Made by a program: the position numbers and the translations under genes. Source: a virus. Taken from it: a stretch of 59,591 nucleotides of DNA. Below, piece by piece: positions 1-59,591 of this stretch. The DNA lies in the IMG/VR virus record IMGVR_UViG_3300028823_000151; one strand, given 5' to 3'. Below the pieces are notes generated by a model. It was not told where the DNA came from, made no database searches, and saw nothing but the letters and a program-made list of their open reading frames with translations. How positions within the stretch are numbered: position 1 is the first letter of the stretch; each line of letters begins with the position of its first letter.

Positions 1-144
1 AAAAACAATTTTTCTAACTGTTTTCCACTGTTCGCATTAAGTTCTCTGCCAGCTATTTGATTTAATTCATCTTGTAGATCGTACCTTAAATCATCAAGTT
101 GCATTCCTGTTTTGTACAGCTTTTCTTTATCAACCCTTACACCT
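1..144. repeat. terminal overlap, left copy (identical to 59448..59591)
   Basis: Base-by-base comparison of the first and last 144 nt shows them identical. Confidence 0.95.
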
Positions 145-797
145 GTTCTTCTCATTTGTAAAAGCAATGGAAACAATCTCATCTCTATGTCGTATACATT
201 CATTAAGTTTTGATCTTCCAATAATCTTTTTTGTTTTTGAAAAACTTTGTAAGTAAGTAAAGCATCTTGTGCACCATAAGGTGCAACAACTAATGCTGGC
301 AAAGTATACAATATTTTATTGTCAACCCTACCTTTAGGAAACTCTATACCGTTATGAATCATATACTCCTTAATATCCCTATAGTTTTTTCCAATACCTA
401 AATATTCTTCACCCAAGGAATCTAAACTGTAAGTTAATTTATATTCATCAATAAGTGGTTCAGCTATTTGGACATCATTATATACACCATTAACAGGTAT
501 TCCTTCATAATTTATTAACCAATCTAAGTCGTATAATCCATTGGCAAATATTTTATGATTGTTAGAACTTAACTGATCAATAATATATTTACGATTTAAA
601 TTAGCTTTTTCAGGAGTCACATCAAAATGATTTATTGGATAATATTCTGAAAGTTCTCCATTAGAAAAGGAAACTCCAGTAACGTATCCATCTTTACGAT
701 AGACACCTGGACCCTTTTCTTTTAGTAAAGGGTCCTTTGATTCTATATCAACTGCTATTTCTTTATCACCTTTATATTGATAATAGCTTAACTTCAT
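1..797 (-). CDS. DNA polymerase I family (PolA-type), N-terminal 3'-5' exonuclease part; same gene as 58388..59591, joined across the circular junction (about 618 aa in total)
   Basis: My minus-strand translation from the ATG at 797 (AAGGAGGA upstream) reads MKLSYYQYKGDKEIAVDIESKDPLLKEKGPGVYRKDGYVTGVSFSNGEL... DIE is the ExoI DxE motif. The stretch I translated by hand (797 down to about 650) has no stop; I did not verify the rest of the frame down to position 1 codon by codon. The ATG at 104 equals the ATG at 59551 and is in frame (797-104=693). The ORF is missing from the track because it runs off the window edge. Confidence 0.85.
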   Translation of the reverse strand, partial: MKLSYYQYKGDKEIAVDIESKDPLLKEKGPGVYRKDGYVTGVSFSNGELSEYYPINHFDVTPEKANLNRKYIIDQLSSNNHKIFANGLYDLDWLINYEGIPVNGVYNDVQIAEPLIDEYKLTYSLDSLGEEYLGIGKNYRDIKEYMIHNGIEFPKGRVDNKILYTLPALVVAPYGAQDALLTYKVFQKQKRLLEDQNLMNVYDIEMRLFPLLLQMRRTGVRVDKEKLYKTGMQLDDLRYDLQDELNQIAGRELNANSGKQLEKLF

Positions 798-1255
798 CTT
801 AGAAATTCCTCCTTTATATCAAATATTTCTAAAAGGTTTTTTACAGTATCAACACCTATTTTTCCTTCCCATTTTGTATAGTCATTGTGATACTCTATAT
901 CGTAGATCACTACAGGAATTTTAAATAGATGCATATACTTTAAACATTGATCACAAGGACCATGAGTAACTAACATAATAAAGTCACTTAGATCAGTATT
1001 GTATCCAAGATTTTTAAAGCAATCGAATATCGCTCTTGGTTCAGCATGAATAGCCCAACATCCATCTTGTTGCCATTCATACTCTTTTCGTACACATTTT
1101 TCACATGGAACTTCAGCCCCTCCATGACCTACTCCAACAATCTCACCTGTATTTTTATACATTAAGACTGCACCTACTTTTTTCTTAAGACATTGGGATG
1201 TTTCTGCCATAACCTTTGCAAGCTCTACAGCGTCTAAAAACTTTTCCTTATTCAT
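794..1255 (-). CDS. deoxycytidylate (dCMP)/cytidine deaminase family zinc enzyme
   Basis: Carries HAEPRAI (HAE catalytic/zinc motif), HGPCDQC (PCxxC) and CLKKKVGAV. GGAGGGG lies upstream of the ATG. The gene overlaps the hydroxymethylase gene by 8 nt. Confidence 0.85.
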   Translation of the reverse strand: MNKEKFLDAVELAKVMAETSQCLKKKVGAVLMYKNTGEIVGVGHGGAEVPCEKCVRKEYEWQQDGCWAIHAEPRAIFDCFKNLGYNTDLSDFIMLVTHGPCDQCLKYMHLFKIPVVIYDIEYHNDYTKWEGKIGVDTVKNLLEIFDIKEEFLR

Positions 1256-2072
1256 ATTCCCCTCCTATGTATCCTATGTGTTTAAATAAAGTTTGACTAT
1301 ATAATTCTAATAAATAGTCATCACACCCCTTTTCAAATTCAGAACGTTTAAATTCAGAGATACCTATTAAATTATAAACTTTAGATAACTTTTCTTTTAT
1401 AAGAAGTAAATTTCTTTCGTACATGTGAAGACTACCAGTCTGATGATTATAGTTTCCTAGTTTTATGTCATAGTTTGAACGTAACTCCTTAAGCATCTTT
1501 AATTGTATTAAACAAAAGAAAGGAACATCATAAGGTAAACCATACCAAATATCTGAAGACCTCATCTTAACAAATAAATGTAGTTTCCCTCCTCTTATAA
1601 AAAATTGTAAAAACATTGTACACGGATTGTCATTACTAGGATGAGCATTTTCTCTGTTATATATTGTCATAACAGCTTTCTTGCTGTCCTTATTTTGTAA
1701 CAACATTTCCCTTGCATATTCAAACTGAGTGTAGTTGTGATGGTTTCTATCGTGTAACAATAGTTTTCCATAGTTACTAAAGATTGTTCTTCCATCATCT
1801 GAAACCTTGTTCCAGAATTTTGAATGCTTAGAAATTTCTTTTAGAAAAGGGCTTCCTGAAGTATAGAATTCTAATTCCCCTTTTAAATAATCTATAGACA
1901 TATCCCTACAAGTTGCGAAACATTTTTTAGGCTTTGTCAAAGTGAAACTATAGTCTAACAGTTCAAAAACCTTTTCTCCTTTTCTGTTTAATATACTATA
2001 GTCAAAATCATTGTACACTTTATCCATTAAGCAACAATAAATTTTATTAAAATCATTCTGAACTATCTTCAT
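1248..2072 (-). CDS. deoxypyrimidine-monophosphate hydroxymethylase, thymidylate-synthase superfamily, T4 gp42-like
   Basis: GELEFYTSGS (cf. T4 gp42 RELEWYKSKS), NPCTMFLQFF (catalytic Cys), KMRSSDIWYGLPYD and TGSLHMYERN (cf. VGSLHVYSRH). The ATG at 2072 with GGAGGGG 6 nt upstream is preferred over the TTG at 2075 used by the track. Confidence 0.8.
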   Translation of the reverse strand: MKIVQNDFNKIYCCLMDKVYNDFDYSILNRKGEKVFELLDYSFTLTKPKKCFATCRDMSIDYLKGELEFYTSGSPFLKEISKHSKFWNKVSDDGRTIFSNYGKLLLHDRNHHNYTQFEYAREMLLQNKDSKKAVMTIYNRENAHPSNDNPCTMFLQFFIRGGKLHLFVKMRSSDIWYGLPYDVPFFCLIQLKMLKELRSNYDIKLGNYNHQTGSLHMYERNLLLIKEKLSKVYNLIGISEFKRSEFEKGCDDYLLELYSQTLFKHIGYIGGEYE

Positions 2073-2141
2073 CAACTTCCCCTCCTGTTGTAATAAACAT
2101 TATACATAAGTTTATAATAGACTTGATTAAAGTCGAAATTA

Positions 2142-2759
2142 TCATTCATTACTTTTTTCCTCCCTTATGTCTGGGGTGACTGGTTTTCCTTCATATTTAG
2201 GCTTCTCTGTAGGATACAGTCCATGGATTCCAAGACGACCTTCCCAAAATTCTCTGCCCTTATTAAATTTTTTCTCACACTCTATAATTCTACTGCTTAA
2301 AATTTGAGCGTATCTTTCTATTGGTCCATAGATATATCTATTTCCTAAAGTATGTTCTTCAAAACAATATAAGTATGCTTCCATTTCATCAGACAATTTA
2401 AAAAGAAGTAATTGATCTTCCGTTAAGATATTTTCTATACCTTTGTCTGACCAAGGTTTAAGTTCTTCAGGAAGTGTTTCCTCTTCAAGTACACTCCAAG
2501 CTTCTTTTGTCTTTTCATTTTTGTTTCGTATCAGCCTATTCATATCGCCTGTAAAGGTCTCTGCAAAATCATGATTCATAAGTATAAATAAAATGTCCTC
2601 ATTTATTTCTACTCCAAACTCTTTACAAAACAAATAGAACAACGTGGCAGTTCCGTGTCCATGTTCGCATAGATTTTGTGGTCTTAAAACAAATTCCATT
2701 TCAAATCTTTTGATTGAAATCATTGTTTTTCTTTTGTCTAAATAATTTTCGATATTCAT
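2142..2759 (-). CDS. HD-domain 5'-deoxynucleotidase, YfbR-like
   Basis: RPQNLCEHGHG...LMNHDFAETFTGD...KLSDEMEAYLYCFEE parallels E. coli YfbR (ENVSEHS...YHDASEVLTGD...KQADALCAYLKCLEE). AAGGAG SD present. Confidence 0.75.
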   Translation of the reverse strand: MNIENYLDKRKTMISIKRFEMEFVLRPQNLCEHGHGTATLFYLFCKEFGVEINEDILFILMNHDFAETFTGDMNRLIRNKNEKTKEAWSVLEEETLPEELKPWSDKGIENILTEDQLLLFKLSDEMEAYLYCFEEHTLGNRYIYGPIERYAQILSSRIIECEKKFNKGREFWEGRLGIHGLYPTEKPKYEGKPVTPDIREEKSNE

Positions 2760-2761
2760 AT

Positions 2762-3829
2762 TTACTCCTTTATTAGTTTTGATATATGTGGTTTTAGTTT
2801 ACCTATTTTGGAAAACTCAATTAAATTATTGTACAAAGGTTCTTTAGGATGTAACTTCTGTATTTTTTCAACTGTATGTATACAGTCGCCATAAAAATAT
2901 TCCTTACCCCAGTAAGGATATAAACCTACACGAAAACTTCTTTGACTACATAGAACACATGAAATAAGATCTTCTCTATATCCTTCCGCAAGTAGTGCTC
3001 TAACCTTTTGAAACTTTTCACCTTGCCAAATATCAAGTACATGTTCTTCGTTAACGTTACCTAAGTCTATACACTTAGCACCATTACTACAACAAATATC
3101 TACGATTCCATCATAACCTATTGTCATATATTTGTAGGGTTCTTTACATACTTTTCTTAATGGAAAGTCCTGTAATTTTGAACCTGTATATTTTTCCCAT
3201 TGGGAAAGTTTTAGGTTGCCTCCCCAATTGTGCATACGTCTTGTAACGTTACCATCACAATTAAATATGTCACTTTCGTCTGTTAAGATAATTGTTTTAT
3301 GTTTATAACCTTTATAAGAAAAAGCATTAACGTTGTCTTTATAATAGTCATAAACTTGTATTCCTTTTATTTCTAAAATTCTTTTGTTTCTTTCTAGTTC
3401 ACCTATAAAGAAATCCCTTTGTGCCTTACTATAAAAATCTGTTTGAGCATAATTAAGACCCTTGTCAAACAAGTCTATAAATTCAAATATGTTTTTACTT
3501 TTATAGACTTCAGTATTTGTTATTATAAGTATCTGTGCCTTTGGCATTTTTTCTCTTATAATACCTATGTACTCTCCTACATTCTTATGTAGAGTTGGTT
3601 CACCTTGTAAAGAGATTGATATACGTTTTGTTTTTTCTGTCAGGTTATCTACAATATTCAACAAAGTTTCTTTTGTTATTCTACCAGTAGAAGCTTGTGA
3701 CCTTCCACAGAAAGAACAATTAAGGTTACATCCTCTTACAAATTCTATACGAACCTGATTTGGTTCTGTAAAAACAAGTAGATTATGTTTCCTTAATTCT
3801 GCGACATGCTCCTTATCATACATTTCCAT
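2762..3829 (-). CDS. radical SAM enzyme with C-terminal SPASM/twitch-like Cys-rich domain
   Basis: VRGCNLNCSFCG is the CX3CX2C radical-SAM cluster motif. The C-terminal VCKEP...GIVDICCSNGAKCIDLGNV...ISCVLCSQ resembles an auxiliary Fe-S (SPASM) domain. Confidence 0.85.
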   Translation of the reverse strand: MEMYDKEHVAELRKHNLLVFTEPNQVRIEFVRGCNLNCSFCGRSQASTGRITKETLLNIVDNLTEKTKRISISLQGEPTLHKNVGEYIGIIREKMPKAQILIITNTEVYKSKNIFEFIDLFDKGLNYAQTDFYSKAQRDFFIGELERNKRILEIKGIQVYDYYKDNVNAFSYKGYKHKTIILTDESDIFNCDGNVTRRMHNWGGNLKLSQWEKYTGSKLQDFPLRKVCKEPYKYMTIGYDGIVDICCSNGAKCIDLGNVNEEHVLDIWQGEKFQKVRALLAEGYREDLISCVLCSQRSFRVGLYPYWGKEYFYGDCIHTVEKIQKLHPKEPLYNNLIEFSKIGKLKPHISKLIKE

Positions 3830-3831
3830 AG

Positions 3832-4689
3832 TTACCTTCCGTTATATTTTCTAAACTTTACTTTTTGATTTCCAGTGTAAGCATTAAGATACTTAACATA
3901 CTTTTGATATTCACACAACCAATGTTCAACTTCCCTTAAGGTTATTTTTTCTTCTGGAAAGTATATTCTAAATTCTTCTTCCATTACTTCCCTTACAACT
4001 ACTGCATCAGGCAACCAATCTCTTTGTTTTATTCTTACAGTAGGATAACCAAACCTTATAAGGCTCATTCCTTGTCTTGCCCCAGGACCCATGTTTGCAT
4101 AGGTATTTTTATCGGTTGGATTAAAGTAGTCTGTGTATTCAAAATCACAAGCATATTCGTATGCCATAAAACCACCAACACCAGGAAATTGTTTTAGAAA
4201 ATCTACAAGCCTTTCCATAGAGTTTTCTTTAATAACTTCTTTTATATAATCGTTAGCTTTTAAACTTTCAATTAAAAAGAATGGAGCTTCATACGTTTCT
4301 AACCAACCACCAGGTACTCTTGGATTTCTTATAAAGCATGAAGAAAATAATTTTTCCCCTTCTTCTTTTCTACTACTAAGAAAATCTTTTACTTCAGATA
4401 AATTGTCCAGTTTACAGTTTTCTTTTATTCTACAGAATGTAGAATATGTAGAAATAAACCTGTATAAAATTATTAAATCCCATCTTTCAAAGGGAAGTAT
4501 GTTTTCTATTAACCACTTTGTACACTTATCGTATTGACGAAACACATTACAGAAAAAGAAATTTTGGAATATCTCATCCTCAGTCCAAGGAGCTGGCATT
4601 CCTTCTTCCTTTAATTTGTAAATCTTATGTCGTTCAATAGCCGTATCTAAGAAGTGATTAAAGTGTTCAGAATTAAAATGGTTATTCAT
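3832..4689 (-). CDS. putative DNA base hypermodification protein, alpha-glutamyl/putrescinyl-thymine pyrophosphorylase (aGPT-Pplase)-like
   Basis: The N-terminal ERHKIYKLKEEGMPAPWTEDEIFQNFFFCNVFRQYDKCTKWLIENI matches my recollection of the conserved start of this family (..R..I...R..G...PWT.D.IL....FCN.YR..DR.....). This rests on memory only and was not searched. Confidence 0.5.
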   Translation of the reverse strand: MNNHFNSEHFNHFLDTAIERHKIYKLKEEGMPAPWTEDEIFQNFFFCNVFRQYDKCTKWLIENILPFERWDLIILYRFISTYSTFCRIKENCKLDNLSEVKDFLSSRKEEGEKLFSSCFIRNPRVPGGWLETYEAPFFLIESLKANDYIKEVIKENSMERLVDFLKQFPGVGGFMAYEYACDFEYTDYFNPTDKNTYANMGPGARQGMSLIRFGYPTVRIKQRDWLPDAVVVREVMEEEFRIYFPEEKITLREVEHWLCEYQKYVKYLNAYTGNQKVKFRKYNGR

Positions 4690-4706
4690 ATATTTCTCCT
4701 ATCATC

Positions 4707-5624
4707 TTATTCATATCCTTTTAAAAATGTATTAGTTCCAAGTATAATTTTCATACCTTCTTCAGCTGGTATATAAGGTTCCTCGCCTTCAGGTAAAAAT
4801 CTTTTCCAGTCTATTGTACAATCTAATCTTTCCTCATCCCATAGTCCGTTGTTCTTTATTTTAAGATCAACATACCCAGGAAATTCTTTACATAATTGTT
4901 TAGCGGATTCAGATTGTGCTTCTACTGTTCTTGTTTCTGAACATCCACCTTTGTATCCTGTTCCAGGGTCACCACAGCACCAACGAGCATTGCTTAAAGA
5001 CTTGTAACCTTTTGACAATAATTTTAATTGTACATAACGATCACTCATAAAAGGAACAGGCATTTCATTAATCTTTATACCTTCCTTTATTAAAGTTGGA
5101 ACATGGTAACAAACGAATCTTATAATTGGAATATTCTTAGGAAACATGTATTTAATTCCTTGGCTTCCAAGCTTCAATGGCAGTCCAACTATTGGGTACT
5201 CCTCATTACAAAGTTGTATACTTTCATAAAGTATTTTATTAAAGCAATCGTTTGCAATAAAGTCTTCATGCCTTGAAGTATATTTTGAAGATAGATTTTC
5301 ATCTCTGAAATACAAGTTTATATCATCGTCAATTATAAATAGGTATTCAGTAAAATTTTCCTTTGCTATATCAAAACACTTTTGTCTTTTATCTGCGATT
5401 GTAGAATCATCAGGTACAACAAAGACAGGTGCATAATTATCTACAGCTTTTCTATAGTCACTTGCTTCACTTTCTCGAACTATAATTTCGTATAGATAAT
5501 TAAAGCTAAAAGGGTCTATATGTTTCCATATACCTATTCTTTTTTCTATAAGATGTATCCTATTTCTAGATGGAATACTTATAGAATAATTTAAGTTTGT
5601 TAACTTATTATAAATTTCACTCAT
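4707..5624 (-). CDS. GT-A-fold glycosyltransferase-like protein (possible DNA-base glycosyl/other group transferase)
   Basis: YSISIPSRNR near the N-terminus and LFIIDDDINL (DxD) are GT-A hallmarks. They resemble phage IPSYKR-type/TET-associated glycosyltransferases. The assignment is weak. Confidence 0.4.
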   Translation of the reverse strand: MSEIYNKLTNLNYSISIPSRNRIHLIEKRIGIWKHIDPFSFNYLYEIIVRESEASDYRKAVDNYAPVFVVPDDSTIADKRQKCFDIAKENFTEYLFIIDDDINLYFRDENLSSKYTSRHEDFIANDCFNKILYESIQLCNEEYPIVGLPLKLGSQGIKYMFPKNIPIIRFVCYHVPTLIKEGIKINEMPVPFMSDRYVQLKLLSKGYKSLSNARWCCGDPGTGYKGGCSETRTVEAQSESAKQLCKEFPGYVDLKIKNNGLWDEERLDCTIDWKRFLPEGEEPYIPAEEGMKIILGTNTFLKGYE

Positions 5625-16197: not shown

Positions 16198-16405
16198 TGT
16201 TTTTGTCCTTAAAAGGTTTATACTTACTGAAGCCGAACACCCTGTATCCGTTATAGTTTTTTAGAAAGTCTATACAGCCCCAAGACTTATTTCCAAGGTG
16301 ACGAGCGAACGATATGTCAATAACCTTTTTCTTTTGATCAATCGAAACGTTTTTAGTTTCTAAGGACCCTATTGCTTTTTGTAGTGTTAGTTCACGCCCT
16401 TTCAC
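16190..16405 (-). CDS. hypothetical protein
   Basis: 4-nt overlap with the upstream ORF. Confidence 0.45.
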   Translation of the reverse strand: MKGRELTLQKAIGSLETKNVSIDQKKKVIDISFARHLGNKSWGCIDFLKNYNGYRVFGFSKYKPFKDKNND

Positions 16406-16620
16406 TCGTTACCCCCTGTAGAAATAAAGCCCCTTAACCGGACACTATAACCCTTTCGTATTATAGAAGTAATTGTATCCGTTAACTCTTCTCTTCCCTT
16501 ACCTGTCATTACTTGTAAATCCTGTAATGTGGCTAATCGCTGATGGGCAATGCGATAATTGTTAACGGTAGTCAACAATTTTTGTTCGTCGGTTGTTAAC
16601 GTACTAATATGGTTCATCAT
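16402..16620 (-). CDS. hypothetical protein, possible winged-helix DNA-binding regulator; first gene of the leftward operon
   Basis: AAGGAGGA abuts the double ATG. QRLATLQDLQVMTGKGREELTDTITSIIRKGY is HTH-like. Confidence 0.4.
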   Translation of the reverse strand: MMNHISTLTTDEQKLLTTVNNYRIAHQRLATLQDLQVMTGKGREELTDTITSIIRKGYSVRLRGFISTGGNE

Positions 16621-16656
16621 TCCTCCTTATAGTATTTTAGTATTTAATAAACTAAT

Positions 16657-16706
16657 ATTATACTATATTATAGTATACATTATATACTGTATAATAACAT
16701 TATACT
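16657..16706 (-). promoter_or_regulatory. candidate -10 boxes (AGTATAAT on the minus strand) for the leftward operon starting at 16620
   Basis: attatact at 16657-16664 and 16699-16706 reads AGTATAAT on the minus strand. I saw no convincing -35. Confidence 0.3.
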
Positions 16707-16868
16707 ATTGTAAAGAACTTTTTATTAAAGGTTTATACTGTATATACCGATAAATATAAGTTAGCTGTCACTAACTTTAAACAGGGGTTAGGTAAAAAGT
16801 TACTCAATTTTTAGACAGTAAGGAAGTGTAATTGCTTAATGAGTAACTTTTTAGAACATAACCTATTA

Positions 16869-16928
16869 TAGTGTTCAAGGCATATAATGTACAGTAATTA
16901 CCGTGCTTTGTGGTTTTAGTGTTCAAGG
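16869..16928 (+). repeat. direct repeat TAGTGTTCAAGG x2 (16869-16880, 16917-16928)
   Basis: Two exact 12-mers spaced 48 bp apart. The related (A)CTTTTATAGTGTT occurs at 17492-17505 and 52261-52274. Confidence 0.8.
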
Positions 16929-17102
16929 ACTTGTACTTTATTAGTGTTTAGTTATTTAGTATCTAGTAAAAATACATTATTCAGTTTTTGTACATTTGTG
17001 AGTAACTTATATAAGGAAAAGTTACTCAATCTACTCACAAATAAATGTTTAGTAGGCATGTAACCGCCCTTAATTACCGGCTGTTAAATGCCCTTTTTTA
17101 GC

Positions 17103-17128
17103 TGAGTAACTTGAGTAACTTGAGTAGC
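17103..17128 (+). repeat. three tandem 9-bp iterons TGAGTAACT-TGAGTAACT-TGAGTAGCA
   Basis: Read directly from ctgagtaacttgagtaacttgagtagcac. Confidence 0.9.
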
Positions 17129-17144
17129 ACACTCTGAGAAAACC

Positions 17145-17166
17145 TATTTTAGCAGTTGCTAAAATA
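17145..17166. repeat. 22-bp perfect palindrome TATTTTAGCA-GT-TGCTAAAATA
   Basis: Arms 17145-17154 and 17157-17166 are exact reverse complements. The palindrome lies between the plus-oriented and minus-oriented iteron groups. Confidence 0.9.
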
Positions 17167-17643
17167 CCAAAATGAAGCTTTTGTTACTCAGCTACTCAGG
17201 ACAAACTACATAAAAGTGTCAGGGCATGTAACATACGGTAAATACCGTTAGTTACAAGCCTTAACCCCTGAGTAATTTTGAGTAGAACTGAGTAACTTTT
17301 TACTTTACCCCCTGTTTAAATGTGCTTCATTTTGTACGAAATCTCGGTACTCATTTTCATGGCTACTGGGATTTTAAAAATCCATTTGTGCCTGACATAC
17401 TATAAAAGTGTGATTGCTAAAAAACCCTCATGCCAGTACGTTCGGTTTCGCCAGCATAATCGTATTTTGGCCATTTCGTTTAACGAATTATACTTTTATA
17501 GTGTTCATGATTTTTTGGATCCATTTCGCTCTCGCTCAAGTGTTAACAGGGGTTAACCCACTTGGGATAAGGAAGCAAACTTGAGGGATACCGAGAGGCA
17601 GACGAACAGAAATCTTGGACTATAACGCCTTATAGGAAGGGAA

Positions 17644-17674
17644 TAAAAAAACCCTGTACAATTGTACAGGGTTT
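17644..17674 (-). terminator. rho-independent terminator of gene 17709..18182
   Basis: aaaccctgtacaattgtacagggttt is a perfect palindrome (17649-17674). On the minus strand it is followed by a T-run, which reads as aaaaaaa on the plus strand. Confidence 0.8.
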
Positions 17675-17708
17675 AATTTAAAACGTGGAGGTGTCTTAAC
17701 GACTGCTA

Positions 17709-18182
17709 TTATTTAAGACCTTTATCTTTATTTAATGTAACCTTGTTTTCGGCTGGTCTATAACCTTGCCAGTTAGCAGGAGCGTCTTTTCCTTTTCCTT
17801 CTAACTTGTATGTACCTGTTTTAGGATCGAAAGAAATCCATACCCTATTTTCAGGCTCAACTTTAAGGATAGACTTACGGATAATACTTGCACATTCTTT
17901 ACGTCCCATTTTAAATTGTTTGAAAACTTCATCTTCAGAAACACTTTTCTTTTCGGTAAGAAAATCAATAAACTTGGACATCGCTGAACTTGATCCGCCA
18001 CCTGTAGCTATACCATATAGTGAAGGGCGAATTTTTGCAAGAGCGTCTTTGTACTTAGGATCTGATTGTTTGTCAACAAGCTCTTTAATTATTGCGAAAC
18101 TTTCTTTTTTCATCTGAGCCTTTGATTTACCTTCAGTCTTTGCAGCTCCTACAGTTTGTTCAGTTTTCTTTTCGTTTAACAT
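17709..18182 (-). CDS. hypothetical Lys-rich protein, monocistronic unit with its own terminator
   Basis: AAGGAG SD at 7 nt. A perfect palindromic terminator lies 35 nt downstream. Confidence 0.55.
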   Translation of the reverse strand: MLNEKKTEQTVGAAKTEGKSKAQMKKESFAIIKELVDKQSDPKYKDALAKIRPSLYGIATGGGSSSAMSKFIDFLTEKKSVSEDEVFKQFKMGRKECASIIRKSILKVEPENRVWISFDPKTGTYKLEGKGKDAPANWQGYRPAENKVTLNKDKGLK

Positions 18183-18267: not shown

Positions 18268-18498
18268 CTAAGCAACCAGTACGGCTCTGTTATAGTAAGC
18301 TATTTGTGTAAGGTTAAGAGTAACACTTTCGCCGTTTACTGAAAAGTTAATTAAGCCGTGACGTCTGAGTCGATTTAATTTGTACATGAAAGTTTTTCTA
18401 TCTTCATAGTTAAGTTCTTTCATAGCGTGTTTAATGTTTCTTGTTTTCTTGTTTGAAGCCCAGCGTATAATTCTTTCGTTTTTGTTTAGTTTTCTCAT
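18268..18498 (-). CDS. hypothetical protein, possible winged-helix DNA-binding regulator
   Basis: AAGGAG SD. The protein is basic, and RKTFMYKLNRLRRHGLINFSVNGESVTL is wHTH-like. Confidence 0.45.
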   Translation of the reverse strand: MRKLNKNERIIRWASNKKTRNIKHAMKELNYEDRKTFMYKLNRLRRHGLINFSVNGESVTLNLTQIAYYNRAVLVA

Positions 18499-20213: not shown

Positions 20214-20603
20214 ATGTCTAAAGAATTTGATCAAAAGAAAGAACAAATAGTCGCATGTTTTGAAAGGACGTTTGATAAGAACATGGCCTACACAAAACTT
20301 GGACTAACGGATAAGGAAATAGAACTGCTTGAAAACGACAAGGAGTTTCAACAACGTTTGGAATTTCGTCTTATAGACAAGCGTGAAGAATTGATAGACA
20401 AGTACTCAGAGTTTATGGAAAGTGATAATGAAAGTATTTCCTTTAAGGCTACACAAGAAATGGCACAGGTCCTTTATCCGGATTTCTTTAAGAACAAAAG
20501 GGAGTCGGGAATTATTATCAACAATAACCTAACCGACTTTAGTAAGTTCACAGATGATCAACTTAAAGTGATTATACAAAAAGGGAAATTAAGAAATGAA
20601 TGA
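20214..20603 (+). CDS. hypothetical protein, possible terminase small subunit
   Basis: Lies upstream of terL and has an HTH-like segment, MAYTKLGLTDKEIELL. The evidence is position only. Confidence 0.3.
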   Translation: MSKEFDQKKEQIVACFERTFDKNMAYTKLGLTDKEIELLENDKEFQQRLEFRLIDKREELIDKYSEFMESDNESISFKATQEMAQVLYPDFFKNKRESGIIINNNLTDFSKFTDDQLKVIIQKGKLRNE

Positions 20604-20877
20604 TCAAATAGAAAAGAATTTTACTTACCATGTACCAACTGAAGATGACATTTCTGTTTTGTCTATGATAAGACAAACCGCAAAGGACTTTGTTTACTTG
20701 TTAGATGAATTTTGTCCAGACTCTCGTGAACGTTCTTTAGCTATAACAAAAATTGAAGAGTCTGTAATGTGGGCCAATGCTTCTATTGTAAGAAACAAAA
20801 CTACATGGAAGGATAAACAGGATCCTTTAGAGGATCTTAAGAATGGAATAAAGATTGTAGAGGAAAACTATAAGTGA
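20596..20877 (+). CDS. hypothetical protein, possibly Acb2/Vs.4-like cyclic-nucleotide-binding anti-defence protein
   Basis: NFTYHVPTEDDISVLSMIRQTAKDFVYLLDEFCPDSRERSLAITKIEESVMWANASIVRN follows a widespread phage pattern (F.YH.P...IR....L...I....P.SRE.SLA.TK.EE..MWAN..I.R). I associate that pattern with this family from memory only. Confidence 0.35.
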   Translation: MNDQIEKNFTYHVPTEDDISVLSMIRQTAKDFVYLLDEFCPDSRERSLAITKIEESVMWANASIVRNKTTWKDKQDPLEDLKNGIKIVEENYK

Positions 20878-58409: not shown

Positions 58410-59591
58410 TCCTTTAGATCCCCCCAGTTTTCACCAATTTCTGCATCGACTATTACAGGAACCCTTAGACGTATACTTGTTTCCATTATGTGTTTCAATT
58501 CTTCGCCTGCATCCCTACCTATTTCAGTTCTTGGCATACTACAGTCCATTTCATCATGGACTGTTAAGTGTGGAATTAGAACGTCGAATACTCCAGCTTC
58601 ATAAGCATCAACCATAGACTTTTTCATAATGTCTGCTGCAGAACCTTGTATAAGTCTATTAAACATTATATATTCTTTTCCAGACTGTGGCATACGAGCA
58701 CGACGATTTAATATTGTTCTTATGTATCCAAACCGTTTTGCCTTTGATGCAACTCTCCTTCCTGTCTCTTTAACGAATGGAACTTTTGAATGATACATTT
58801 CATAAACAGCCTTAGCACCTTCAAGTTCCCAATTATATTTTCTAGACATAGATGTAATTCCCATCCCATAAGCAGCTCCAAAGTTTAGTGTCTTAATAAC
58901 CTTACGGTCATCAATACCTGTCATTTCCATAAGTTCAGCATGGTAGTCTACGTTTGGATCGTTAATATATCTTTGTCGTATAACCTCTGAACCTTCTCCA
59001 GAAGCGTAATGTGCTATAAGTCGATATTCAATTTGTGACCAGTCCATCTTTAACCAATCACAACCTTCCTCTGGAACAAATAGTTTTCTTACAACTTGAC
59101 CGGACAATACTTCACTATCATGTTGTATATATTCGTTTTCATTTTTTCCAGAAACTTGCTGTAAATTTGGATTTGATGAAGAGAACCTTCCACTTACTGT
59201 TCCATAATCATCACTTCTTAATTGATTAAAGCTACAATGTAGTCTATCACCTACCATTAATTCTGGATAAGGATGTATAAACATATTTAATAAAGTGGAA
59301 ATATGTCTAATTTCTAATATTTTTTTAGCTAGATCATGATCCATTTTACTTAATGTTTCCTTATCAAACTTTGGATTTCCTTTAAGTTGTCCTTTCATTA
59401 TCATTAACTCAGTAGGTTCATTGTATTCTACAGGATGTCCCATAGACAAAAACAATTTTTCTAACTGTTTTCCACTGTTCGCATTAAGTTCTCTGCCAGC
59501 TATTTGATTTAATTCATCTTGTAGATCGTACCTTAAATCATCAAGTTGCATTCCTGTTTTGTACAGCTTTTCTTTATCAACCCTTACACCT
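58388..59591 (-). CDS. DNA polymerase I family (PolA-type), polymerase domain; continues upstream into 1..797 across the circular junction
   Basis: KMDWSQIEYRLIAHY (motif A), RKVIKTLNFGAAYGMG (motif B) and HLTVHDEMD (motif C). The frame is open beyond the listed Met at 59551 up to the window end. Confidence 0.9.
   Translation of the reverse strand, partial: GVRVDKEKLYKTGMQLDDLRYDLQDELNQIAGRELNANSGKQLEKLFLSMGHPVEYNEPTELMIMKGQLKGNPKFDKETLSKMDHDLAKKILEIRHISTLLNMFIHPYPELMVGDRLHCSFNQLRSDDYGTVSGRFSSSNPNLQQVSGKNENEYIQHDSEVLSGQVVRKLFVPEEGCDWLKMDWSQIEYRLIAHYASGEGSEVIRQRYINDPNVDYHAELMEMTGIDDRKVIKTLNFGAAYGMGITSMSRKYNWELEGAKAVYEMYHSKVPFVKETGRRVASKAKRFGYIRTILNRRARMPQSGKEYIMFNRLIQGSAADIMKKSMVDAYEAGVFDVLIPHLTVHDEMDCSMPRTEIGRDAGEELKHIMETSIRLRVPVIVDAEIGENWGDLKEWKIEYV
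59448..59591. repeat. terminal overlap, right copy (identical to 1..144)
   Basis: As for the left copy. The repeat lies inside the polymerase ORF, so it most likely reflects circular assembly or a permuted genome. Confidence 0.95.

What the first reader, a model, noticed from the sequence alone, without database searches (positions are those of the whole stretch)
16621..17708. 1.1-kb ORF-free region with 13 TGAGTARC iterons inside a cassette bracketed by 31-bp inverted repeats
In an otherwise gene-dense genome this stretch has no credible ORF. Between 16776 and 17320 I count 8 exact TGAGTAAC sites on both strands, 2 TGAGTAGC sites and 3 one-off variants. That is far more than chance allows for an 8-mer in about 0.5 kb. 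The cassette is bounded by imperfect inverted repeats (16776-16806 and 17289-17320) that each end in an iteron. Additional direct repeats lie within or beside the cassette: TAGTGTTCAAGG x2, GGCATGTAAC x2, ATAAAAGTGT x2 and AACAGGGGTTA x2. The candidate identities are a replication origin with iterons for a phage initiator, a regulatory array titrating one of the nearby winged-helix-like proteins, or a mobile or invertible non-coding cassette.
Basis: seen in the sequence. Interest (0 to 1): 0.7.

Follow-up and report, generated by a model that had tools for sequence, protein, structure and literature searches.

The report
Phage repeat array with winged-helix partner
This non-coding stretch is a real docking array of 13 short repeats that travels with a neighbouring, previously undescribed DNA-binding protein found in over a hundred uncultured phages; it most likely marks where the phage starts copying its DNA, though a role in DNA packaging or gene switching is not excluded.

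Summary
Ten of the genome's 11 exact TGAGTARC words, 13 with near-variants, lie in 16799-17296, and no shuffle reached that count. The region has no credible ORF, no Rfam match and no tRNA.

The array is the cis partner of the gene next to it, 17709-18182 (-). That gene encodes a 157-aa protein ("FAM") with a confident winged-helix domain and no match in Pfam, PHROGs, the PDB or cultured phages. FAM belongs to a family of 314 or more cluster representatives.

In 106 unique family loci, 36 of 72 long enough to judge carry an array close to FAM, against 6 of 80 FAM-less phage loci. Each array has 6-24 copies of a locus-specific 7-9-mer. The copies form tandem blocks (8-11 bp period) of alternating orientation in ORF-free DNA. 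The repeat word changes with FAM's recognition helix.

The module always sits at the boundary between packaging and early genes. FAM is transcriptionally insulated: 78 of 101 copies are followed by a terminator.

In the window, the array abuts the most AT-rich 150 bp of the genome.

Best reading: an iteron-type replication origin (about 0.4). Rivals are a packaging recognition site (about 0.25) and an early/late transcription switch (about 0.2). An invertible or mobile cassette is not supported.

The parts
16776..17320 (.). Iteron array: 13 TGAGTA(A/G)C-type sites in five groups of alternating orientation
   Evidence: 10 of the genome's 11 exact TGAGTARC words fall here; there are no ORFs of 60 aa or more.
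16799..16847 (.). Group 1: divergent pair of iterons (16799-16806 on -, 16840-16847 on +), a perfect 14-nt inverted repeat TAAAAAGTTACTCA / TGAGTAACTTTTTA
   Evidence: I9.
16999..17037 (.). Group 2: convergent iterons 16999-17006 (+), 17021-17028 (-) and the variant TGAGTAGA at 17030-17037 (-)
   Evidence: (I21).
17103..17128 (+). Group 3: three head-to-tail iterons with a 9-bp period (TGAGTAACT TGAGTAACT TGAGTAGC)
   Evidence: D1.
17129..17182 (.). 54-nt spacer between the inverted groups 3 and 4. It has A/T tracts roughly every 10 bp and the palindrome TATTTTAGCA..TGCTAAAATA (17145-17166)
   Evidence: I25; z = -3.5. L085 has the same 54-nt spacing between its inverted blocks.
17183..17198 (-). 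Group 4: two head-to-tail iterons on the minus strand (8-bp offset)
17269..17296 (+). Group 5: three head-to-tail iterons with a 10-bp period (TGAGTAAT, TGAGTAGA, TGAGTAAC)
17055..17092 (.). Hairpin-forming element GGCATGTAAC...GTTAAATGCC carrying TTACCG. It is one of three related copies (16878, 17054, 17222) spaced about 170 bp apart
   Evidence: D2, D3; z = -3.1. TACCG occurs 6 times in the array against 6 times in the other 17.4 kb.
17223..17260 (.). Second, stronger hairpin element GGCATGTAAC ATACGGTA..TACCGT TA GTTACAAGCC
   Evidence: -11.7 kcal/mol as DNA, z = -5.3, 0 of 200 shuffles fold as well.
16621..16775 (.). AT-rich tract (80% AT), the most AT-rich 150 bp of the genome. It is a candidate unwinding element and holds the promoter region of the leftward early operon, with two TATACTGTATA near-palindromes
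   Evidence: 99.9th percentile; promoter-like sites on the - strand; D13.
16865..16893 (-). Promoter-like site inside the array (TGTACA-17-TATAAT) reading towards the early operon
   Evidence: This is a consensus match only; the number of such matches in the region is not above the shuffle expectation.
17321..17648 (.). Unexplained ORF-free, GC-richer spacer between the array and the terminator
   Evidence: It is absent from the relative L081.
17649..17674 (-). Intrinsic terminator ending the FAM operon (11-bp stem followed by a T run)
   Evidence: The same feature follows 78 of 101 family genes.
17709..18182 (-). FAM: 157-aa winged-helix protein of an uncharacterised family, the proposed reader of the iterons
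18268..18498 (-). 76-aa protein in the same operon as FAM, winged-helix-like by sequence pattern only. It is conserved in L081 (47% identity); homologues (cluster c5) lie beside FAM, nearly always just upstream on the same strand, in about 12 other loci
20214..20603 (+). S129: probable small terminase subunit and the most conserved neighbour of FAM (48 of 72 loci)
   Evidence: top fold hit is Sf6 gp1, but weak: E = 0.8, TM 0.40.

Best explanation
The 545-bp cassette is an iteron array. It is the cis-acting partner of the insulated two-gene operon beside it (76-aa protein plus the 157-aa winged-helix protein FAM).

Proposed mechanism:
1. FAM binds the 8-bp words through its winged helix. This step is inferred from the fold, the linkage and the helix/word co-variation.
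2. Sites are grouped head-to-tail every 8-10 bp, and successive groups point in opposite directions across bent or hairpin-forming spacers. FAM, which has a long N-terminal helix that could mediate oligomerisation, could therefore fold about 500 bp into a compact nucleoprotein complex. This step is inferred.
3. The complex destabilises the adjoining tract 16621-16775, the most AT-rich 150 bp of the genome. The phage's own helicase and primase load there, possibly using the hairpin elements as priming signals, so the locus acts as the origin of replication. This step is inferred, by analogy with SPP1 oriL/oriR, lambda ori, P4 ori and RSF1010 oriV.

The general claim, that this is a specific protein-binding array functionally paired with FAM, I rate at about 0.8. 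The specific claim that it is the replication origin I rate at about 0.4, which is the confidence given here.
For: Clustering of the word is far beyond chance.

The only close relative, L081, has FAM at 47% identity. It keeps a 1.1-kb ORF-free gap with its own array of GTGTA(A/T)C, a one-base change of the core, including a 9-bp tandem triplet. Neither array contains the other's word.

FAM belongs to a family of at least 314 cluster representatives. There are 106 unique loci. Arrays of at least 6 copies of a private 7-mer in ORF-free DNA occur in 36 of 72 FAM loci against 6 of 80 FAM-less phage loci. They share the same block architecture.

The word tracks the FAM recognition helix:
- GRKEC..IRKS goes with TGAGTA (window, L096).
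- GRK(E/D)C..IRKH goes with TGTAACA (L081, L102).
- GRPEM.TK.RI goes with GGTGACA or TGTCACA (8 loci).

FAM has a confident winged-helix domain (pLDDT 90-95).

The AT-rich tract abutting the array is the genome's extreme. Most family arrays have a stretch of at least 75% AT within 250 bp.

Hairpin elements inside the array fold far better than shuffles.

The cumulative GC-skew minimum lies at 17-18.5 kb.

The phage encodes its own PolA, primase, two helicases and a ligase, but no recognisable initiator.

SPP1 origins are described as direct repeats plus an AT-rich unwinding element bound by a phage protein (PMC6316719). Exact, many-copy words fit a high-affinity specific binder. They fit less well with the weak, almost sequence-independent binding of a pac-type small terminase (PMC4737164).
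Against: No experiment or coverage data exist.

FAM matches no known initiator by sequence or fold.

FAM's most constant neighbour is a probable small terminase, not a replication gene. In about a third of loci FAM lies just upstream of TerS-TerL on the same strand.

The GC-skew minimum also coincides with the switch of coding strand, so it is not independent evidence.

The AT-rich tract is also simply the early promoter region.

The 8-bp words and 8-10 bp period differ from the classic 17-22 bp iterons.

Helix/word co-variation could reflect shared ancestry, and the small terminase helix co-varies at clade level too. L172 and L156 have near-identical FAM helices but different top words.
Confidence: 0.4

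Rival explanations
1. Packaging recognition site (pac- or cosB-like). FAM and/or the probable small terminase S129 assemble on the array, and the complex recruits the large terminase to start packaging of concatemers.
For: S129, with a small-terminase-like fold and position, is FAM's most conserved neighbour (48 of 72 loci).

In arrangements B and D the array lies immediately upstream of S129, as cosB does for lambda Nu1 and pac does for SPP1 gene 1 (PMC6316719).

The N-terminal half of S129 stays conserved with FAM and the array while the large terminase is swapped among at least four families. This would be expected if the DNA-recognition part belongs with the site.

Inverted site groups across a bent spacer recall cosB R3-I1-R2 (own knowledge).
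Against: In the window and the other type-A loci the array is 1.2-3 kb from S129, with FAM and a terminator between. This includes the GpA-type, lambda-like terminase loci, where cos would be expected beside terS.

Characterised pac sites have few, poorly conserved repeats, overlap the terS start, and are bound almost non-specifically (PMC4737164). Here there are 6-24 near-exact copies.

The array is closer to FAM than to S129 in the type-A and type-C loci, which together make up most of the mapped loci.

The small-terminase identity of S129 is not established (Foldseek E = 0.8).
Confidence: 0.25
2. Operator array of an early/late transcription switch. FAM binds on both sides of promoters embedded in the array and in the adjoining AT-rich tract. 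It represses or activates the operon(s) that start at the module boundary, comparable to the multi-site Mu repressor operator region.
For: In all four arrangements the array lies directly upstream of at least one major operon, often in a divergent promoter region.

There is a promoter-like site inside the window's array (16893-16865), and others at 16781-16686.

TATA-type words are 3.5-6-fold enriched inside arrays of 10-28 loci.

FAM is a small, insulated unit that looks built for strong expression.

The Mu repressor is a winged-helix protein with about 9-11 sites in three clusters (own knowledge).
Against: The flanking operon differs between arrangements: early only in A, late only in D, both in B and C. 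No single regulatory logic fits all of them.

Thirteen to 24 sites over 250-500 bp is far more than most phage operators have.

Promoter-like matches in the window's region are not above the shuffle expectation (8 found against 9.5 expected).

The late promoter region of the window (18.5-19.0 kb) has no iteron.
Confidence: 0.2
3. Another kind of nucleoprotein site: a replication-fork barrier that triggers the theta-to-concatemer switch (as proposed for gp38 bound at SPP1 oriR), or a centromere-like positioning site.
For: Alternating orientation of site groups resembles opposed Ter clusters bound by the winged-helix protein RTP in B. subtilis (own knowledge).

The SPP1 review describes fork stalling at protein-bound oriR as the proposed switch.

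The weak fold hits include the archaeal centromere binder AspA and the pNOB8 centromere protein.
Against: No ParA, ParM or TubZ-type NTPase was found among the genes scanned. There is no sign of a plasmid-prophage lifestyle: no real hits in isolate genomes.

The fold hits are non-significant generic winged helices.

The fork-barrier idea has no direct support here.
Confidence: 0.08
4. Invertible or mobile non-coding cassette bounded by the 31-bp inverted repeats.
For: The imperfect inverted repeats at 16776-16806 and 17289-17320 are real.
Against: An independent assembly of the same phage is 100% identical over 17 kb, with no inversion.

No recombinase or transposase was found among the neighbours scanned.

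The arms are themselves made of an outward-facing iteron plus flanking motif, and a long bracketing inverted repeat was not evident in the relatives' arrays inspected.

The array occupies the equivalent position in a relative whose FAM protein is 47% identical, with a different word. That pattern fits vertical co-evolution, not mobility.
Confidence: 0.02

Closest known systems
Iteron-type phage origins: SPP1 oriL/oriR bound by gp38, and lambda ori bound by O
   Same: Clustered repeats next to an AT-rich unwinding element, bound by a phage-encoded sequence-specific protein (SPP1: PMC6316719). The site lies in or beside the early region.
   Different: FAM has no detectable relationship to gp38 or O. 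The words are 8 bp with an 8-10 bp period, against about 19-bp iterons. There are 13 sites in alternating blocks over 500 bp, against 4-6. The array is outside the binder's gene, whereas oriL and lambda ori lie inside the initiator gene. Replication function is untested.
Satellite phage P4 ori/crr bound by the alpha protein's C-terminal winged-helix domain (own knowledge; no supporting paper could be retrieved)
   Same: An octamer iteron (TGTTCACC, recalled from memory) repeated many times in both orientations over a few hundred bp and read by a winged-helix domain. Several family words here (GTGTCACC, CTGTCACC, TGTCACA) look alike.
   Different: P4 alpha is a large primase-helicase with the DNA-binding domain fused to it. 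FAM is a stand-alone 157-aa protein with no sequence or significant fold match to it. The resemblance of the words may be coincidence.
RSF1010/R1162 oriV (own knowledge)
   Same: Iterons, an AT-rich segment and hairpin-forming single-strand initiation signals, used by an element that brings its own initiator, helicase and primase. The window has iterons, an AT-rich tract, two or three strong hairpin elements and its own primase and helicases.
   Different: Its iterons are 20 bp and direct only. RepC is unrelated to FAM. The role of the hairpins here is purely inferred.
Terminase recognition sites: lambda cosB (R3-I1-R2-R1) and SPP1/SF6 pac
   Same: Repeated protein-binding sites, some inverted across a bend, near the small terminase gene. 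The module always neighbours a probable small terminase.
   Different: Known sites are about 200 bp or less with 3-6 poorly conserved repeats and lie at the terS start (PMC4737164, PMC6316719). Here there are 13-24 near-exact copies over 250-500 bp, and in the window they are 2.9 kb from S129.
Phage Mu operator/enhancer region bound by the winged-helix Mu repressor (own knowledge)
   Same: Many short sites in clusters in a divergent control region, read by a winged-helix domain.
   Different: No transposase or lysogeny functions here. There is no homology. The flanking operons vary between family members.

Membership tests
Iteron-type replication origin | Cluster of repeated binding sites far above chance | tested here: met
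   10 of 11 exact words in 500 bp; 0 of 100 shuffles reach the count.
Iteron-type replication origin | Adjacent AT-rich DNA unwinding element | tested here: met
   16621-16775 is 80% AT, the genome's maximum. This is composition only, and the tract is also a promoter region.
Iteron-type replication origin | Cognate initiator protein, related to known Rep/O/gp38-type initiators, that binds the iterons | tested here: inconclusive
   An adjacent winged-helix protein co-varies with the word. It has no relationship to any known initiator. Binding cannot be tested here.
Iteron-type replication origin | Iterons of about 17-22 bp spaced about two helical turns apart, mostly in direct orientation | tested here: not met
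   Words are 8 bp, the period is 8-10 bp, and the blocks alternate in orientation.
Iteron-type replication origin | Replication starts there, or the site supports autonomous replication | not testable with these tools
   Needs marker-frequency analysis, 2D gels or a plasmid amplification assay.
pac/cos packaging site | Lies at or overlapping the start of the small terminase gene | tested here: not met
   In the window it is 2.9 kb from S129, with FAM, a terminator and small genes between. The feature is met in arrangement B and D relatives.
pac/cos packaging site | Terminase cleavage or genome termini at the site | not testable with these tools
   Only a circular assembly with a 144-bp overlap is available; there are no reads.
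Phage operator array (repressor or activator sites) | Sites overlap or flank mapped promoters of the regulated operon | tested here: inconclusive
   Promoter-like matches exist inside and beside the array, but no more than in shuffles. TATA-type words are enriched in many arrays.
Plasmid or prophage partition site (parS, parC, tubC) | Adjacent NTPase partner (ParA, ParM or TubZ) | tested here: not met
   None among about 40 window proteins scanned.
Invertible or mobile cassette | Recombinase nearby, and alternative orientations or presence/absence among copies | tested here: not met
   No recombinase was found. The second assembly is 100% identical. The array is retained at the equivalent position in L081.
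Known non-coding RNA family or tRNA | Match to an Rfam covariance model or a tRNA | tested here: not met
   nothing at gathering score. The best E-value hits are weak and centre on the terminator hairpin.
Small terminase subunit (for S129, 20214-20603) | N-terminal helix-turn-helix, helical oligomerisation hairpin, gene just upstream of the large terminase | tested here: inconclusive
   The topology fits. It lies upstream of, and usually directly adjacent to, the large terminase wherever that gene is within the locus, in most of its 48 loci. The top PDB fold hit is Sf6 gp1, but at E = 0.8 and TM 0.40. There is no sequence hit.

The most novel reading that the evidence does not exclude
The small winged-helix protein, FAM and the alternating-block iteron array form a previously unrecognised, self-contained organising-centre module. 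It marks the early/late boundary in a large clade of uncultured phages. FAM would be a new class of phage origin-binding or genome-organising protein. Its nucleoprotein complex could couple replication initiation with terminase recruitment and/or the early-late switch, which would explain why it always travels with the small terminase's DNA-binding half regardless of large-terminase type.
Probability: 0.3. Interest if true: 0.7.

Novelty: new variant of a known kind. Interest (0 to 1): 0.55.

Why it matters
Origins, packaging sites and master switches are unknown for almost all uncultured phages. Here a simple sequence signature, a terminated FAM gene plus a private-word array, pinpoints one such cis-acting control locus in over a hundred phage lineages. 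It also supplies the likely protein partner and a natural specificity series: many helix/word pairs that differ by one or two bases.

That makes DNA recognition by a new winged-helix family directly testable. It gives a handle for building replicons or packaging vectors for phages with no cultured host. It also cautions annotators that these 0.3-1 kb "gene deserts" are functional.

Tried and rejected
- Near and distant DNA searches and tblastn of FAM (three family members) against 50,697 GenBank phages found nothing. The primase finds only relatives at 33% identity or less.
- IMG/VR searches with the flanking proteins and the triple-iteron DNA string found nothing.
- The terminase-anchored loci are unrelated phages without the word. 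I reused them as a background control.
- Automatic back-translation of the family profile failed. I replaced it with a hand-written degenerate DNA signature.
- L084's AAGCGCGGGA x8 looked like an array but is a coding repeat, so I discarded it.
- TACCG as a universal second motif is rejected. It is enriched only in the window, in L081, and in loci where it is part of the iteron itself.
- DnaA boxes: there is no cluster.
- GC skew is not independent of coding-strand bias.
- Rfam and tRNA scans found nothing.
- Fold searches gave only generic winged-helix hits for FAM.
- The literature search for the P4 octamer iterons did not retrieve a usable source, so that comparison rests on memory.
Full report
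**Observation**

The window is a complete, circularly assembled phage genome. It has a 144-bp end overlap, about 33% G+C and Shine-Dalgarno-type ribosome sites.

Exact TGAGTARC occurs 11 times in the genome, and 10 of those lie in 16799-17296. The expectation for the whole genome is 3.5, and no shuffle out of 100 reaches 11. One 600-bp bin holds 11 hits, against 0-2 in every other bin.

The sites form five groups:
- a divergent pair (16799-, 16840+);
- a convergent trio (16999+, 17021-, 17030-);
- a head-to-tail triplet with a 9-bp period (17103, 17112, 17121, all +);
- a doublet on the other strand (17183, 17191, both -), 54 nt away from the triplet;
- a second triplet with a 10-bp period (17269, 17279, 17289, all +).

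The bracketing imperfect inverted repeat and the minor direct repeats are real. No credible ORF, Rfam family or tRNA is present. An independent gene call on another assembly also leaves the gap empty.

**Setting in the genome**

To the left, a long leftward block starts at 16620. It holds a denV-like glycosylase, an HU-like protein, a primase, helicases and nucleotide-modification genes. It wraps round the circle to a ligase, a helicase and PolA.

To the right lie a strong terminator (17674-17649, minus strand) and the two-gene leftward operon it ends: a 76-aa protein and a 157-aa protein. After a strand switch at about 18.5-19 kb comes the rightward late block, with a 129-aa protein (S129), the large terminase, the portal and so on.

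The array therefore sits between a terminated small operon and the early operon. The 155 bp between the array and the early operon are the most AT-rich 150 bp of the genome (80% AT, 99.9th percentile). The cumulative GC-skew minimum is at 17-18.5 kb, but that coincides with the change of coding strand.

**Relatives**

No GenBank phage is close. The 157-aa protein ("FAM") has one near homologue (47% identity) on a 7.9-kb metagenomic contig, L081. That locus keeps the order: 75-aa protein, FAM, a 1.1-kb uncalled gap, then a denV-like gene.

The L081 gap has its own array. All 9 copies of GTGTA(A/T)C in the locus lie within 450 bp, including the 9-bp-period triplet GTGTAACAC GTGTATCCT GTGTATCCA. 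The core differs from the window's by one base (GAGTAAC against GTGTAAC), and neither array contains the other's word. The gene on the far side of the gap is unrelated to the window's 72-aa gene. A second assembly of the same phage is 100% identical over 17 kb.

**The protein family**

An exhaustive profile search finds 314 cluster representatives, nearly all 140-190 aa. The family has no hit in Pfam, PHROGs or PDB sequences, and none in cultured phages.

The AlphaFold model has a long N-terminal helix followed by a textbook winged helix at residues 67-130, with pLDDT 90-95. Foldseek returns only generic, non-significant winged-helix matches.

**Is the array a property of the family?**

A hand-made degenerate DNA signature of the family's C-terminus retrieved loci from IMG/VR, metagenomes and MAGs. 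Of these, 136 were confirmed by HMM and 106 are unique. No copy was found in an isolate genome, so there is no sign of prophages and no host assignment.

Of the 72 loci of at least 2.5 kb, 36 carry at least 6 copies of a private 7-mer within 500 bp of ORF-free DNA and within 1.8 kb of FAM. The same rule finds such arrays in 6 of 80 FAM-less phage loci covering twice as much DNA, and five of those six belong to one related group.

The arrays share one architecture: blocks of 2-3 head-to-tail units with an 8-11 bp period, successive blocks in opposite orientation, 60-100 bp apart. An example is L096: -0 -9 -20 / +95 +104 / -181 -190 / +280 +291 +300. Hairpin-forming or A-tract spacers often lie between blocks. 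L085 even has the same 54-nt spacer between inverted 9-bp-period blocks as the window.

The words are related to each other (TGAGTACA, GTGTAACA, TGTTAACA, TGTCACA, GGTGACA and others). They follow the FAM recognition helix:
- GRKEC..IRKS goes with TGAGTA.
- GRK(E/D)C..IRKH goes with TGTAACA.
- GRPEM.TK.RI goes with GGTGACA or TGTCACA.

This is what a reader/site pair should look like. Shared ancestry is not excluded, however, and there is one discordant pair (L172 and L156).

**Context across the family**

The most conserved neighbour of FAM, present in 48 of 72 loci, is the homologue of window 20214-20603, S129. It lies upstream of, and usually directly adjacent to, the large terminase.

Its model shows a three-helix N-terminus plus a long helical hairpin. 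Its best PDB match is the Sf6 small terminase, but only weakly (E = 0.8, TM 0.40). It is probably the small terminase. The large terminase beside it belongs to at least four different families.

Four arrangements recur:

| Type | Gene order |
|---|---|
| A (window type) | <TerL <S129 .. >smallWH >FAM [array] >early genes |
| B | <TerL <S129 [array] .. >smallWH >FAM >early genes |
| C | <early genes [array] >smallWH >FAM >S129 >TerL |
| D | >FAM [array] >S129 >TerL |

The array is therefore always at the boundary between the packaging and early modules, and always within a few small genes of FAM.

FAM is never translationally coupled to S129; the smallest gap is 111 bp. In addition, 78 of 101 FAM genes are followed within 120 bp by an intrinsic terminator, against 15 of 170 control segments. 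FAM, with its small partner, is an insulated unit whatever operon lies next to it.

**Interpretation**

Two things are shown. The array is real. It is also specifically and repeatedly linked to an uncharacterised winged-helix protein family, with word and helix changing together.

What the complex does is inferred. I favour a replication origin (about 0.4) for these reasons:
- Many near-exact sites imply high-affinity, specific binding.
- The genome's AT extreme directly abuts the array.
- The array contains strong hairpin elements.
- The phage has its own replisome but no recognisable initiator.
- The pairing does not depend on which operon flanks it.
- The anatomy matches how SPP1's origins are described.

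A packaging site (about 0.25) is the main rival, because of the constant company of the probable small terminase and the cosB-like position in arrangements B and D. In the window's arrangement, however, the array is 2.9 kb from S129. Characterised pac sites are also much smaller and bound almost non-specifically.

An early/late operator array (about 0.2) fits the promoter-rich setting and the enrichment of TATA-type words inside arrays. It does not fit the changing identity of the flanking operon or the sheer number of sites.

A fork barrier or centromere (about 0.08) and an invertible cassette (about 0.02) have little or no support.

**Novelty**

The kind of element, an iteron array with a cognate binder, is known. 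The binder family, the 8-bp alternating-block architecture, the fixed position at the early/late boundary and the link to a small-terminase-like protein are not described in any library or paper I could reach. I rate it a new variant of a known kind, of moderate to good interest. It offers a directly testable protein-DNA specificity series across more than 100 uncultured phages.

Noticed in passing
window 794-5624 (- strand): A run of nucleotide-metabolism genes: dCMP deaminase, a thymidylate-synthase-like protein, a dNTP pyrophosphohydrolase-like protein, a radical SAM protein, phrog_2396 and a glucosyltransferase-like protein. This suggests the phage hypermodifies its DNA.
   Followed up: no
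window 20596-20877 (+): A 93-aa protein between S129 and the large terminase carries a precomputed Pfam hit to Acb2_Tad1_hairpin. It may be an anti-CBASS/anti-Thoeris nucleotide sponge.
   Followed up: no
window 16683-16693 and 16734-16744: Two copies of the near-palindrome TATACTGTATA lie 51 bp apart in the AT-rich early-promoter tract (D13). They may be an operator for a different regulator, for example the 72-aa protein at 16402-16620.
   Followed up: no
window 17321-17648: An ORF-free, GC-richer 330 bp lies between the array and the terminator. It folds somewhat better than shuffles on both strands (z = -3.4 and -2.9). It has no homologue and is absent from L081. It could be a small RNA sharing the bidirectional terminator.
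   Followed up: partly
window 1-144 and 59448-59591: An identical 144-bp overlap at both ends. The window is a complete circular assembly, broken inside the PolA gene.
   Followed up: yes
L017 8195-8454; also L019, L025, L029 and L032: FAM-less phages with about 50%-identical terminases carry their own ORF-free array, AAACTTA x7 in about 260 bp, about 1.5 kb upstream of the large terminase in L017. This is an analogous but independent repeat array.
   Followed up: no
L084 8500-8660; L145 7791-8136; L094 4594-5074; L191 5995-6259: Strong tandem repeats inside long ORFs (for example EKAREAREKA... in L084; GATTGGC x18, CAACGCG x19, AACAGCG x20). These are coding repeats that mask array detection.
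   Followed up: partly
L127 (contig JARRLT010000001.1): A FAM locus with S129 and a large terminase sits on a 44.7-kb contig binned as a Promethearchaeota MAG. It is most likely a mis-binned phage contig.
   Followed up: no
arrays of 10-28 family loci, e.g. L120 760-1140: TATA-type words (ATATAG, CTATA, AATTAG) are 3.5-6-fold enriched inside arrays. In L120 a TATAGAATTAGA element recurs between iteron blocks. These may be embedded promoters.
   Followed up: partly
S129 family (window 20214-20603 and 47 other loci): The N-terminal half is conserved across loci whose large terminases belong to at least four unrelated families, while the C-terminal tail varies. This fits a modular small terminase whose DNA-binding half stays with the genome.
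   Followed up: partly
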